Below are positions 11,714 through 61,476 of a DNA stretch of 64,000 nt, one piece after another. Source of the DNA: Octopus vulgaris (taxonomy: Eukaryota); assembly GCA_951406725.2 (NCBI GenBank), contig OX597818.1:40734001-40798000 (forward strand), written 5' to 3'. Below the pieces are notes generated by a model that saw only the letters and a program-made list of their open reading frames with translations, searched no databases and was not told the DNA's origin. The translations under genes were made by a program, and so were the position numbers. Every line of letters begins with the position of its first letter. Position 1 is the first letter of the stretch.

Positions 11714-12871
11714 ATTATATAAAAGGGCTTAGTAAAATAAATTACTTTGCCGCATACTGAACTCATTAGAAATAGCAGCCAAAAAAAAACTTTTTTAAAA
11801 ACTATTTCCAATACTTAAAGAAAACCTCTCTCATATAGTGTTTGCTCAATTCAACTCACAAAAGTATGGGGGTAGAGACATTAAAAAATCAAATGCAAAG
11901 GTTATTTGAGAACGTACGTTTCAAGATTAGTCAAAATCGACACTTCTATCATCAGCTCAGAACTCCCTGGTTTGGATTTGAAAACACTGAAAGTGGGAGC
12001 ATACCCTTTCGGCTTGTTATCACTTCTGAAGATCTGCTCAAAACTAACAGTGCTAGCAAATTCAAATATGCAAGCGAAGAATTTCTGCTCTCCCCTTTCC
12101 ACCAGCGTGGGTTAAAATCAGCAAACACTATGCTTTTTTCGGTAAAATCCGAGGCATTATATAGAGAGAGATGAATTATAATTTCAACAATTGAGGGTAA
12201 AATTAATTAATTAATCAATTTCACCAAGTATTCAGTATACAAAGGGACCATTTAAGGCGAATTCAAATTATTACATTATATAAAAGGGCTTAGTAAAATA
12301 AATTACTTTGCCGCATACTGAACTCATTAGAAATAGCAGCCAAAAAAAACTTTTTTAAAAACTATTTCCAATACTTAAAGAAAACCTCTCTCATATAGTG
12401 TTTGCTCAATTCAACTCACAAAAGTATGGGGGTAGAGACATTAAAAAATCAAATGCAAAGGTTATTTGAGAACGTACGTTTCAAGATTAGTCAAAATCGA
12501 CACTTCTATCATCAGCTCAGAACTCCCTGGTTTGGATTTGAAAACACTGAAAGTGGGAGCATACCCTTTCGGCTTGTTATCACTTGTTATCACTTCGGTA
12601 AAATCCGAGGCATTATATAGAGAGAGATGAATTATAATTTCAACAATTGAGGGTAAAATTAATTAATTAATCAATTTCACCAAGTATTCAGTATACAAAG
12701 GGACCATTTAAGGCGAATTCAAATTATTACATTATATAAAAGGGCTTAGTAAAATAAATTACTTTGCCCATTTTATATAATGTAATAATTTGAATTCGCC
12801 TTAAATGGTCCCTTTGTATACTGAATACTTGGTGAAATTGATTAATTAATTAATTTTACCCTCAATTGTTG

Positions 12872-13200: not shown

Positions 13201-13260
13201 AGGTCTCTTTCTTTCTTTTGTTATCTTACCGTTTTATCAATATATATATATATATATATA

Positions 13261-13329
13261 TAGCACGACCTTGCGTTGTTGTTTTTCCTTGTGTTTGTTC
13301 TTCGTTTTTTTTTGTGATTTACTTTATAT

Positions 13330-13408
<79 letters not shown>

Positions 13409-13476
13409 AAGTAAATCCCCCACAAAAAAAAAACGAAGAACAAACACAAGGAAAACAACAACGCGAGGATGTGCTA
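13261..13476. repeat. ~215-bp palindrome centred on (CA)n(TA)n(TG)n
   Basis: Left arm TAGCACGACCTTGCGTTGTTGTTTTTCCTTGTG... mirrors ...CACAAGGAAAACAACAACGCGAGGATGTGCTA. Confidence 0.9.
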
Positions 13477-13519
13477 TATGCAAATTATCAGCAGACGCTC
13501 AGGGAAGGAAAGAAAGGTG

Positions 13520-13554
13520 GTTTTACGTTTCGAGCAAAGCTCTTCGTCAGAAAC
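13520..13554 (-). ncRNA. Minimal type I hammerhead-ribozyme-like motif with canonical CUGANGA core
   Basis: GTTT-CTGACGA-A-GAGC.TTT.GCTC-GAAA-C-GTA-AAAC: stem I GUUU/AAAC, stem II GAGC/GCUC, loopless palindromic stem III, GUA site. Confidence 0.65.
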
Positions 13555-13708
13555 AGGAGACAGAGGAAAGTCCAAGAGAAAAAGGAAGACGGAGGAATAT
13601 ATATCTTACCACACGCACACACAAGCACACACAAGTACACAAGCACACACACATACATACATACATCCTTTTTTCTCTCCTTTTTTCTCTCCTTGTTTTT
13701 TTGTGTCA

Positions 13709-13831
13709 CTTTCTGTAGAAGAGCGTAGGCTCGAAACGTAAAAGACTTTTTCTATTCCTGAGCGTTATACTAATACATCTGTTTGTTTTGTACACCACCT
13801 GTCTTCGTCTTTTGCTTTTTTCGTAAACTCT

Positions 13832-13836
<5 letters not shown>
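13709..13836 (+). mobile_element. Short dispersed repeat carrying a hammerhead-like motif at 13709-13744 (core CUGUAGA)
   Basis: Near-identical copies at 53771-53900 (+) and 61265-61373 (-); ends in (TA)n. Confidence 0.75.
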
Positions 13837-31111: not shown

Positions 31112-32098
31112 AGGCGGCGAGCTGGCAGAAACGTTAGCGCGCCGGGCGAAATGCGTAGCCGTGTTTCGTCTGCAGCTACGTCCTGAGTTCAAATTCCGCC
31201 GAGGTCGACTTTGCCTTTAATCTTTTCGGGGTTGATAAATTAAGTACCAGTTACGCACTGGGGTCGGTGTAATCGACTTAATCCGTTTGTCCTCTTTGTG
31301 TTTAGCCCCTTGTGGGTAGTAAAGAAATAGGTATTTCGTCTGCCGCTACGTTCTGAGTTCAAATTCAGCCGAGGTCGACTTTGCCTTTAATCCTTTCGGG
31401 GACGATTAAATAAGTACCAGTAACACACTGGGGTAGATATAATCGACTTAATCCGTTTGTCTGTCCTTGTCTGTCCTTGCTTGTCCCCTCTGTGAGGAGC
31501 CCCTTGTGGTCAGTAAAGAAATAGGTAATTCGTCTGCCGCAACGTTCTGAGTTCAAATTCCGCCGAGGTCAACTTTGCCTTTCATTCTTTCGGGGTCGAT
31601 TAAATAAGTACTAGTTACGGACTAGGTTCGATATAATCGACTTAATACTTATGTCTGTCCTTGTTTGTCCCCTCTGTGTTTAGCCCCTTGTGGGTAGTAA
31701 AGAAATAAGTATTTCGTCCGTCTTTACATTCTGAGATCAAATTCTGCCGAGTTCGACTTTGCCTTTCATTCTTTCGGGGTCGATTAAATAGAGTACCAGT
31801 TACGCACTGGGGTCGATATAATCGACTTAATCCGTTTGTCTGTCCTTGTTTGTCCCCTCTGTATGTAGCCCCTTGTGGGCAGTAAAAAAATAAGAATCGT
31901 TAGCACACCGGGCGAAATGCGTAGCGGTATTTCGTCTGCCGCTACTTTCTGAGTTCAAATTCCCCCGGGGTCGACTTTGCCTTACATCCTTTCGAGGTCG
32001 ATTAAATAAGTACCAGTTACGCACTGGGGTCGATGTAGTCGACTTAATCCCTTCCCCCAATTTTGAAGCCTTGTGCTTCCATGAGAAAGGATTATTAC
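31112..32098 (+). mobile_element. Head-to-tail pentamer of SINE family B
   Basis: Units begin at about 31112, 31330, 31524, 31708 and 31893. Confidence 0.92.
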
Positions 32099-39127: not shown

Positions 39128-39665
<538 letters not shown>

Positions 39666-53653: not shown

Positions 53654-53770
53654 TAAATTTCCTTATAAATTATATCTTTAAGTATACTTCACAATATATG
53701 GACTGTATATATATATATAAACATATACACACTTGTTTCTCTGCTTGTTTGTTGTTGTTTTTCTGTATCT

Positions 53771-53896
53771 CTTTCTGTAGAAGAGCGTAGGCTCGAAACG
53801 TAAAATACTTTTTCCATTCCTGAGTGCTATACTAATACATCTGTTTGTTTTGTACACCACCTGTATTCGTCTTTTGTTTTGTTTTTTGTGAACTCT

Positions 53897-53900
<4 letters not shown>
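53771..53900 (+). mobile_element. Short hammerhead-like repeat, same family as 13709
   Basis: CTTT-CTGTAGA-A-GAGCGTAGGCTC-GAAACGTA-AAAT at 53771-53806. Confidence 0.75.
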
Positions 53901-59550: not shown

Positions 59551-60819
59551 AATATTGCGAATAACTACTTTGTTGTTTAGCCCATCGTCAGGTTGATGGA
59601 ACAGATATATGGTGAACTGTGTTCAAAACTTAATCTGACCATCTCATTTGCTTAGGGTCTCGGGAACTTCATTGTCTTATAAATCCCCTTTATTTATTTA
59701 TTTATTCATTTATTTATTTATCTATATATTTAAGCCTATAGAGAATACGCTCGTCTGCATCATTTATTAGGATCAGGTACCTTCGTATTTTTTTCTGCTC
59801 ACTAGTCTCATGTTGATTGATACGAATTCGTATAAAAATACGCAACCTTGCAGCCCGATCATGTAAACTCAAGCGATAGTCACTGCATTCTGATTATCAG
59901 AGTGAACACTGGGGCGCATTTTGCAGTGCAAACAGAATCATCGGCTGATCGCCGACCAGTGTTATTACAGATCAATCCGTGATAAGCGCAACATAATTCA
60001 GAATTGGACGTGGATCTGTAATCCCAGTTCCACGATGAACAAATCAATGATAAATGAGGCTATATGTACAGCGTGTGCTCAGTTCACACATTACTACTTA
60101 TTGTGCATTAACTGTTCTAGTTAAAAATTGAAGAAGTGAAGTGAGATTACAGAACTTATTGTGTTGGTAACTATTATCTAATAGGCATTAAGCACGGAAA
60201 TGTTGATATAACAATATTATAGCCATGGAATTATGGTAATTTGCTAGTTAAATTATCTTAAATACTATTTGTTTATTGGTGGTTGATTCCTCTTGCAAGG
60301 AACAGGATCGATTTTCCAACAATCGATATTATTTTTTGTTTCATTCGCGAATCAAATTTTAGTTGGATAGCATGAAGTTTATCATATAATCTTCAAGCAT
60401 TTATTTGAATTCTACTTTCATTTAATTTTCGTTATAACAATCAAATCCTTAATATTCGTATATAACTTCCACTTCGATATGGTTGAATCACGTCAGTACC
60501 AAGTAACTAAGGGTTTATTTATTATTACAATATAATTTCACTACAGATAAAGTGAAAGGAGACTCATTTTAGCAGAGACTGGTCTCGAAAATATAAATAA
60601 ACTGGGACTTTATAATTCATTTATTTAAATTTTGTCACTAATTATGTAGAAAGGAGATGAGGGGAGGGGAGACAATGAAACTGAAGTACACGTTTGCGCA
60701 CAGACTGATAAATTGATCCAAATTATTTTCATATTCCTTGTAAAATAACCATCACAACTCCAGATGCAAATACAGCTGGATTTATTCCAGAGAGAGCTTT
60801 TTATATGGAGATTTTTACC

Positions 60820-61262
60820 TCTATCTAACACATCTCACACAAGCCCAAGTGCGCTCGACAACAATGCTGAAGCCGTCAATAAAAAAATATGGAAGACCTA
60901 ACTGTGGTATATGCGTCAACCTAATTGAGGGATCGGAGTTCTCTTTCAAACAGGGCCAACGTTTTACAGTGAAAAACAATTTCACATGTGCTTCGGAGAA
61001 ACTAATATATGTATTAACTTGCTCTGGGTGTCGAGAGCAATACATAGGCCAAACTAAAAACAGTCTGCCTCAAAGGATGGATCTACATCGATCCCAGATC
61101 AAAATTCGGGAATACAGAAAAATGGCATTCAACGAACACATCGACATTTGCACCAATAACAAATAACCAAGCTTCAGAATTTTTCCCCTTTATAAATTCA
61201 GGGACGATGCAACCTGTAGTCAGCGTATTAGCAAAGAGTCATATTTAATCACAAAATATAAA
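60820..61262 (+). pseudogene. Penelope-like element fragment: CxxC motif and GIY-YIG endonuclease
   Basis: RPNCGICVNL...FTCASEKLIYVLTCSGCREQYIGQTKNSLPQRMDLHRSQI...EHIDIC, a stop, then FRIFPLYK...QRISKESYLITKYK. Confidence 0.92.
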
Positions 61263-61264
61263 CA

Positions 61265-61400
61265 AAAAAAAAGACGAAGACAGGTGGTGTAGACAACAAA
61301 CAGATGTATTAGTATAACGCTCGGGAAGTGAAAATGTCTTTAACGTTTCGAGCCTACGCTCTTCCACAGAAAGGAACACAGTTAGAAACAAGGAGAGAAA
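61265..61400 (-). mobile_element. Short hammerhead-like repeat (motif at 61338-61373, core CUGUGGA) abutting the Penelope fragment
   Basis: CTTT-CTGTGGA-A-GAGCGTAGGCTC-GAAACGTT-AAAG. Confidence 0.75.
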
Positions 61401-61476
61401 ATAAAGAATGTGTCGTGGCTAACGATCTATTATAGTGAATGTGTGCGTGTATATGTATATATATATATATATATAT

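What the first reader, a model, noticed from the sequence alone, without database searches (positions are those of the whole stretch)
13520..13744. Family of short repeats with covarying minimal hammerhead motifs (four copies in the window)
Seen: 13520-13554(-) GUUU-CUGACGA-A-GAGC.UUU.GCUC-GAAAC-GUA-AAAC; 13709-13744(+) CUUU-CUGUAGA-A-GAGC.GUAG.GCUC-GAAAC-GUA-AAAG; 53771-53806(+) the same with AAAU; 61338-61373(-) CUUU-CUGUGGA-A-...-GAAAC-GUU-AAAG. Stem I covaries (G-C vs C-G), loop II and N7 vary freely, the cleavage triplet stays NUH, and all share a downstream CC(T/C)GAGCGT-like motif. Known: an extra A between A9 and G10.1 is tolerated in a viroid hammerhead, and loopless palindromic stem III implies dimeric folding as in Penelope-like elements. 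Unusual: three copies share U at the normally invariant A6, so this is either a new core variant or an amplified inactive lineage. Inference: a retrozyme-like non-autonomous system targeting microsatellites.
Basis: partly seen in the sequence, partly recalled or inferred. Interest (0 to 1): 0.75.

Follow-up and report, generated by a model that had tools for sequence, protein, structure and literature searches.

The report
Active Penelope retrotransposon, A6U hammerhead core
The four motifs are tail ends of two abundant Penelope-type jumping genes; in the youngest intact family one normally fixed letter of the hammerhead (self-cutting RNA) core is changed while the rest of the motif has stayed constant, so it is likely a slowed but still maintained ribozyme, though cutting is untested.

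Summary
The four motifs are real (4 matches, 0.01 expected). They are not a retrozyme family. They are 5'-truncated 3' ends (pseudo-LTRs) of two sister Neptune-type Penelope-like retrotransposons that insert into (TA)n, carrying the minimal dimer-type hammerhead described by Cervera and de la Peña (2014). The U6 core is lineage-wide: of 16,332 genomic matches to this lineage's motif only 180 have A6, and 96 of the first 100 listed have U6. It sits in both repeats of young, intact autonomous copies (0.67% divergence), so the lineage is not dead. Across six subfamilies, N7, N17 and a stem I bulge changed repeatedly, while 33 core and stem sites changed once. The sister lineage, which holds the canonical copy at 13520, independently fixed U4C in its younger subfamilies. 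Copy 5' ends pile up about 108 nt upstream and never at the cut site, in U6 and canonical subfamilies alike, so short templates were uncut. Best reading: a selected hammerhead fold with weak cutting (0.5); rival: a non-catalytic fold (0.3). This scan noted the same A6U core in another genome. Verdict: new variant of a known kind.

The parts
13403..13604 (-). c1: 5'-truncated 3' end (pseudo-LTR) of Neptune-type lineage B, older canonical-core subfamily (CUGA[A/C]GA, loop UUU)
   Evidence: 89% identity over 205 nt to L369; clusters with 30 relatives
13520..13554 (-). c1 minimal hammerhead motif, canonical core CUGACGA, predicted cut after 13524
13258..13330 (+). Inverted second copy of the c1 3' tail, without the hammerhead (end approximate)
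   Evidence: 89% match to the c1 tail
13658..13834 (+). c2: 5'-truncated 3' end of lineage A, subfamily s7, followed by (TA)n
13709..13744 (+). c2 hammerhead motif, core CUGUAGA (U6 at 13716), predicted cut after 13740; stem I can extend to 6 bp across a 2-nt bulge
53724..53899 (+). c3: lineage A subfamily s7 3' end followed by (TA)n; hammerhead motif 53771-53806 (U6 at 53778), outer stem I pair broken
61249..61446 (-). c4: lineage A subfamily s11 3' end; hammerhead motif 61338-61373 (CUGUGGA, GUU); begins near the 5'-end hotspot and lacks its (TA)n tail
60744..61250 (+). GIY-YIG endonuclease fragment of a third Penelope-like family, fused tail to tail with c4 (limits approximate)
   Evidence: tblastn 32% identity, E 5e-8, at 60891-61106

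Best explanation
The motifs are the 3' pseudo-LTR ends of two Neptune-type Penelope-like retrotransposons that insert into (TA)n, and the U6 lineage keeps a hammerhead fold that is likely under selection and likely cuts only slowly, as a dimer. Shown: the link to intact RT-endonuclease elements, the (TA)n junctions, fixation of U6, and the position-specific conservation. Inferred: transcription starts about 108 nt upstream of the cut site inside the pseudo-LTR; the element's enzyme primes at a UA run about 100 nt downstream of the cut site; most templates are uncut, which gives the many short solo copies with a whole hammerhead; the two hammerheads of a 4.5-kb transcript occasionally pair through their ACGU palindromes and cut, and a religated circle could give the seamless partial tandems. 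Weak cutting is tolerated, or favoured, because a linear template cut at its 3' hammerhead loses its priming end.
For: Autonomous partner: 22 of 22 hammerheads in 12 long-frame loci read CUGUUGA; RT hit PF00078 E 1.4e-7 over cut-off and weak GIY-YIG hit E 0.006; 14 of 16 frames intact, mean pairwise divergence 0.67%. Fixation: 16,332 matches, A6 in 180. Conservation over six subfamily consensuses: 1 change in 33 core and stem sites, against 4 at N7, 2 at N17, 3 at two bulge sites, 49 in 62 upstream sites and 40 in 87 downstream sites; Poisson P 4e-6 at the downstream rate. N17 stays A or U in lineage A consensuses and A, U or C in lineage B. Control without ascertainment on the hammerhead: 109 copies found by the downstream flank alone give the same consensus in five U6 subfamilies, with U6 in 99 and A6 in 2. 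The same motif in metagenome contigs has A6 in 79 of 81 matches and covarying stem I pairs, so the fold is real and U6 is a departure. Natural A6C keeps low but detectable activity, and U4C lowers activity in vitro yet supports viroid infectivity (PMC3088659). Minimal Penelope hammerheads cut weakly and only as dimers or trimers (PMC4209133).
Against: No cleavage data. All single and double mutants of the CUGA turn except the C3-G8 swap had low activity, with no rescue (PMC9901934, passages). No insertion starts at the cut site: 0 of 37 short U6 copies and 0 of 70 copies of the canonical c1 subfamily, so nothing in the DNA shows cutting in either. There is no compensatory stem change within lineage A, and loop II is as invariant as the core, which a protein-binding site would also give. 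Other invariant runs exist in the flanks, up to 15 nt. The hammerhead dimer is far from the minimum-energy fold (-8 to -9 against -22 to -28 kcal/mol for U6 subfamilies) and monomer z-scores are unremarkable. The youngest lineage B subfamily adds a U-U mismatch in stem I to U4C, which looks like decay. Seamless tandems can also arise by strand transfer without any cutting (inference).
Confidence: 0.5

Rival explanations
1. Same element, but the U6 (and C4) hammerhead no longer cuts; its shape or sequence is kept as a binding or folding signal for the element's own protein or a host factor.
For: Two sister lineages went on amplifying after fixing different core changes that lower activity in vitro (PMC3088659, PMC9901934). 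No cut-site footprint. Loop II invariant. Naiad elements thrive without a canonical hammerhead, and its function in these elements is called unclear (PMC8557442). Scan note e1-8672774 reads a similar case this way (unchecked).
Against: The variable sites are those that hammerhead chemistry leaves free, and no subfamily consensus has G at N17. G8 and G12 are untouched.
Confidence: 0.3
2. The motif is a relic; its constancy reflects a DNA-level constraint (internal promoter or factor site) or too few substitutions to erode it.
For: Penelope has an internal promoter in its 5' transcribed region (PMC2377424). Other short invariant blocks exist in the flanks. The subfamily ladder has only six steps, and the consensuses come from clustering.
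Against: Flanks differ by up to 39% between consensuses while the motif does not. Both arms of stem I, 28 nt apart, are kept while the bulge between paired bases varies, which a linear DNA site does not predict. The motif lies about 80-115 nt from the inferred start, beyond the 47-nt promoter mapped in Drosophila Penelope.
Confidence: 0.14
3. A retrozyme-like non-autonomous family of small circular RNAs.
For: Many copies are about 210 nt with a shared 5' hotspot (11 of 37 short copies within 4 nt). A few short tandems and internally deleted units exist (L009, L049, L050).
Against: Both lineages are contiguous with RT-endonuclease frames. Copies are solo and variably 5'-truncated; 37 of 74 youngest copies run more than 335 nt upstream. 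A fixed 5' end upstream of an intact hammerhead points to a linear uncut RNA, not a circle.
Confidence: 0.05

Closest known systems
Minimal hammerheads (min-HHR) in pseudo-LTRs of metazoan Penelope-like elements (Cervera and de la Pena 2014, PMC4209133; main text parts 1-2 of 4 and supplement file 2 parts 1-2 of 3 read)
   Same: Type I order, extra base between 9 and 10.1, G10.1-C11.1, palindromic 15.2-16.2 with no loop 3, mostly solo copies. The Acropora digitifera Neptune row of Fig. S3 has nearly the c1 layout.
   Different: All rows of the 56-motif alignment that I read have U4 and A6 (their descriptor required it); the only core change is U3. Here U6 is fixed in lineage A and C4 in younger lineage B. 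No cephalopod is in that alignment.
Neptune clade Penelope-like elements (Craig et al. 2021, PMC8557442; passages and supplement rows read)
   Same: One frame with RT, a CX2-5CxxC linker and C-terminal GIY-YIG; partial tandems; inverted truncated copies; microsatellite bias. By eye the protein closely follows Neptune1_Ap in the supplement alignment.
   Different: Non-canonical hammerhead core; long CA-rich 3' region. No tree was built.
Natural hammerhead core variants A6C (phage Bcep176) and U4C (viroid) (Perreault et al. 2011, PMC3088659; section 8 and passages read)
   Same: Changes at the same two positions of the CUGA turn, with low but non-zero activity.
   Different: Those are single isolates. 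A6U does not occur in the main text; here it is fixed in about 16,000 copies. Figures S6 and S7 gave no searchable text.
Animal non-LTR retrozymes (PMC7229834, passages; bioRxiv 10.64898/2026.07.22.740005, part 1 of 5 and passages)
   Same: Type I hammerhead, link to Penelope pseudo-LTRs.
   Different: Retrozymes are non-coding tandem repeats, largely with canonical efficient hammerheads and circular RNAs; these are ends of coding elements.

Membership tests
Penelope min-HHR | Canonical core CUGANGA ... GAAA ... NUH | tested here: not met
   Met by c1 only; c2-c4 and about 96% of lineage A have U at position 6. A register shift cannot supply A6, because position 7 is C, G or U in four of the five U6 subfamilies.
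Penelope min-HHR | Extra base between A9 and G10.1; G10.1-C11.1 pair | tested here: met
   A9.1 and stem II invariant in all subfamily consensuses
Penelope min-HHR | No stem III loop; palindromic 15.2-16.2 | tested here: met
   ACGU in all four copies and all consensuses
Penelope min-HHR | Located in both pseudo-LTRs of a Penelope-like element | tested here: met
   10 of 12 young loci have the motif on both sides of the frame, about 4.5 kb apart; lineage B shown on the 3' side only
Penelope min-HHR | Self-cleavage as a dimer | not testable with these tools
   Needs a bench assay; only contigs were available for RNA runs
Neptune-type Penelope-like element | RT with DKG motif and C-terminal GIY-YIG in one frame | tested here: met
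   lineage B C-terminal part 58-73% identical to lineage A
Neptune-type Penelope-like element | CX2-5CxxC linker and CCHH motif | tested here: met
   CX4CxxC at residue 836; CxxC inside the GIY-YIG core and two downstream histidines, read from the sequence
Neptune-type Penelope-like element | Partial tandem structure and microsatellite target | tested here: met
   14 of 18 long loci are seamless partial tandems; 71 of 74 ends at TA-type junctions
Neptune-type Penelope-like element | Phylogenetic placement in the Neptune clade | not tested
   Only a by-eye comparison with Neptune1_Ap rows in a supplement; the linker motif is shared with Nematis
Non-LTR retrozyme | Non-coding family in head-to-tail tandem repeats | tested here: not met
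   Contiguous with coding frames; mostly solo truncated ends
Non-LTR retrozyme | Small circular RNA produced by self-cleavage | not testable with these tools
   No raw RNA reads were offered

The most novel reading that the evidence does not exclude
An active animal retrotransposon carries a working hammerhead with uridine at the near-universal A6, partly rescued by a bulged 6-bp stem I and an invariant GUAG loop II; with the parallel U4C change in the sister lineage, this shows Penelope elements being selected to slow their ribozyme rather than lose it.
Probability: 0.33. Interest if true: 0.7.

Novelty: new variant of a known kind. Interest (0 to 1): 0.5.

Why it matters
What the hammerhead does in Penelope-like elements is stated to be unclear (PMC8557442). 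This genome holds a graded natural series (A6, then five U6 subfamilies; U4, then three C4 subfamilies) that ends in near-identical intact elements, so wild-type, A6, G12A and compensatory constructs can be compared directly for cutting and for transposition. If U6 cuts, the accepted core is wider than thought and standard descriptors miss some 16,000 motifs in this genome alone. If it does not, the motif is kept for something other than catalysis. The element type and the motif layout are already known, and this scan has noted family-wide core changes in several other genomes, which limits the surprise.

Tried and rejected
Rfam scan: microsatellite noise, no hammerhead among the 150 rows shown of 381. 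RVT_1 family search of the genome: top hits scored in the range of LINE-type RTs and were not followed up. Sequencing runs: no RNA holder listed; only contigs. Laying four runs showed no other letter at position 6, but none at the variable position 7 either, so it is uninformative; contigs show no RNA ends. A second laying on c2 gave no result. Cut-site footprint in 5' ends: none in U6 or canonical subfamilies (one search was spoiled by a TA-laden reference and redone). Register shift to rescue A6: rejected (N7 is often not A). U6 as a 3' splice acceptor (polypyrimidine-UAG in s7): rejected as general, since only s7 has A7. CpG decay as the source of U4 copies in lineage B: insufficient, since 24 of the first 100 have U4 against under 10 for neighbouring CpG sites, and U4 tracks older flanks. 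Sporadic A6 copies with N7 = A or G have the flanks of U6 subfamilies and read as post-insertion changes. No intact full-length lineage B copy was found (10 loci extended, 2 with RT-endonuclease remnants). Lunse et al. 2017 and Arkhipova et al. 2017 were not held; either may describe position-6 variants. Literature searches for A6U: (hammerhead, core variants, A6U: no hammerhead A6U paper).

Full report
Observation. The four motifs stand as written. A stem II plus GAAAC pattern matches 4 times against 0.01 expected, and a looser descriptor finds only these four. Copies c2 (13709), c3 (53771) and c4 (61338) share 140-190 nt at 84-89% identity; c1 (13520) shares only the motif and a short downstream block. 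So there are two lineages, here A and B.

Genome context. The genome is 2.8 Gb in 227 contigs; I take it as octopus-like from its repeats (recalled) and from earlier scan notes. The 27-letter lineage A motif with positions 6 and 7 left open has 16,332 exact matches; of the first 100 listed, 96 have U6, 2 A6, 1 C6 and 1 G6, and position 7 takes all four bases. A6 accounts for 180 matches. The lineage B pattern has 12,216 matches; by my count of the first 100, 74 have C4, 24 U4 and 2 A4. Close relatives of c2 have a fixed 3' end running into (TA)n and variable 5' ends.

The autonomous element. Walking out of tandem copies reached a reading frame with Penelope RT motifs. A protein search gave 150 scored matches, many with identical scores and open frames of about 1,000-1,200 residues. 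I fetched 20, 12 of them chosen for the longest frames. Those 12 hold 22 hammerheads, all CUGUUGA, flanking an RT, a CX4CxxC linker and a GIY-YIG domain. Fourteen of 16 long copies have an unbroken 955-960 codon frame, and mean pairwise divergence is 0.67%. Fourteen of 18 long loci are seamless partial tandems with 327-1,570 nt of upstream repeat on a 4,482-nt unit. Lineage B leads, through a CA-rich region, to a related RT-endonuclease end in 2 of 10 extended loci, 58-73% identical to lineage A; no intact B copy was found. The linker motif and a by-eye match to Neptune1_Ap point to the Neptune clade; no tree was built.

History of the core. Clustering 249 of 270 lineage A copies on flanks alone gave seven subfamilies of five or more copies. 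c2 and c3 fall in s7, c4 in s11. Over six consensuses (s12, five gappy copies, dropped) the 13 fixed core sites and 20 stem sites change once; position 6 changes once, position 7 four times, position 17 twice and the two stem I bulge sites three times; flanks change 49 times in 62 sites and 40 times in 87. Many older copies were collected by patterns on the hammerhead itself, which would force this result, so I repeated it with copies found by the downstream flank alone: of 129 hits, 109 had upstream homology, and they give the same consensus in five U6 subfamilies, with U6 in 99 and A6 in 2 (a few of these copies were also pattern targets by another route). The same control shows that the oldest cluster is mixed (1 A6, 3 U6); its A6 consensus was inflated by my A6-targeted sampling. 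The direction A6 to U6 therefore rests on a set of old A6 copies with distinct flanks, on lineage B (A6 in 121 of 122) and on outside motifs. A metagenome scan found 108 stretches; 80 were returned, with A6 in 79 of 81 matches and stem I pairs that covary between families (stem II was fixed by my pattern). In lineage B, c1 belongs to an older canonical subfamily; three younger subfamilies have C4, and one adds a stem I mismatch.

Is there a trace of cutting? In the youngest U6 subfamily, 74 copies were taken by a downstream anchor; 37 end within 335 nt, 11 of them at -110 to -107 and none at -3 to +4 of the cut site. In the canonical c1 subfamily, 32 of 70 end at -119 to -105 and none at the cut site (several ends are blurred by divergence). 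I read the hotspot as a transcription start inside the pseudo-LTR, as in Drosophila Penelope (PMC2377424); this is inferred, and AT microhomology may add to it. Short copies thus come from uncut RNA whether the core is canonical or not. This neither shows nor excludes rare cutting, since a religated circle leaves no end. Folding gives no support: monomer z-scores lie between -0.6 and 0.9 and the hammerhead dimer is well above the minimum, as expected for such short stems. RNA runs were available only as contigs.

Mechanism. Most likely the motif is a hammerhead fold still under selection that cuts slowly as a dimer (0.5). For: the free sites are the ones the chemistry leaves free, G8 and G12 are untouched, and natural A6C and U4C keep low activity (PMC3088659). 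Against: CUGA-turn mutants are poor and not rescued by second changes (PMC9901934), there is no compensatory change within a lineage, loop II is equally frozen, and lineage B looks partly decayed. The main rival is a non-catalytic fold (0.3), then a relic or DNA-level constraint (0.14), then a retrozyme (0.05).

Comparison and novelty. Layout, location and the preponderance of solo copies match the min-HHRs of PMC4209133. The A6 feature is not met, so c2-c4 are variants, not canonical members. I found no A6U hammerhead in print, but two key papers were not held and figure supplements could not be read. This scan noted the same CUGUAGA core in another genome and other family-wide core changes elsewhere; these notes are unchecked and came after my reading was set. 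What this window adds is the link to a young intact autonomous element, the subfamily ladder with an ascertainment control, the parallel U4C lineage and the missing cut footprint. Verdict: new variant of a known kind, interest 0.5.

Noticed in passing
window 60744-61250 (+): Endonuclease fragment of a third Penelope-like family (32% identity to lineage A), fused tail to tail with c4 at an A/T run.
   Followed up: partly
lineage A subfamily consensuses, position N7: N7 changes at 4 of 5 subfamily steps (Poisson P about 0.003 at the flank rate); it may tune cutting or escape a host factor. Unexplained.
   Followed up: partly
window 13757-13764 (+) and equivalents: The CC(U/C)GAGCG motif, shared by both lineages, is predicted to pair with the 3' strand of stem II (probability 0.12-0.97 by subfamily): a possible anti-ribozyme fold.
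   Followed up: partly
lineage B, e.g. L192, L335, L361: Younger subfamilies fixed U4C (74 of the first 100 of 12,216 matches by my count of the listing); one also has a U-U mismatch in stem I. The 3' region is about 3 kb and CA-rich.
   Followed up: yes
L049 1500-2250; L050: Internally deleted tandem units of lineage A (pseudo-LTR, about 330 nt of 5' internal sequence, pseudo-LTR) with two U6 motifs about 530 nt apart.
   Followed up: partly
window 31164-31894 and 39170-39537: Short tandem arrays of a 184-194 bp dispersed repeat; recalled as a cephalopod SINE, not checked.
   Followed up: no
window 12695-12817: Long perfect inverted repeat, probably a MITE; a similar sequence lies in the flank of L175.
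   Followed up: no
L009, L012, L121: Further, more distant hammerhead-bearing repeat ends with other loops, two of them with C4.
   Followed up: no
L149: Chimera with lineage B sequence upstream and lineage A hammerhead and tail downstream, giving an A6 core; suggests template switching at the shared motif.
   Followed up: no
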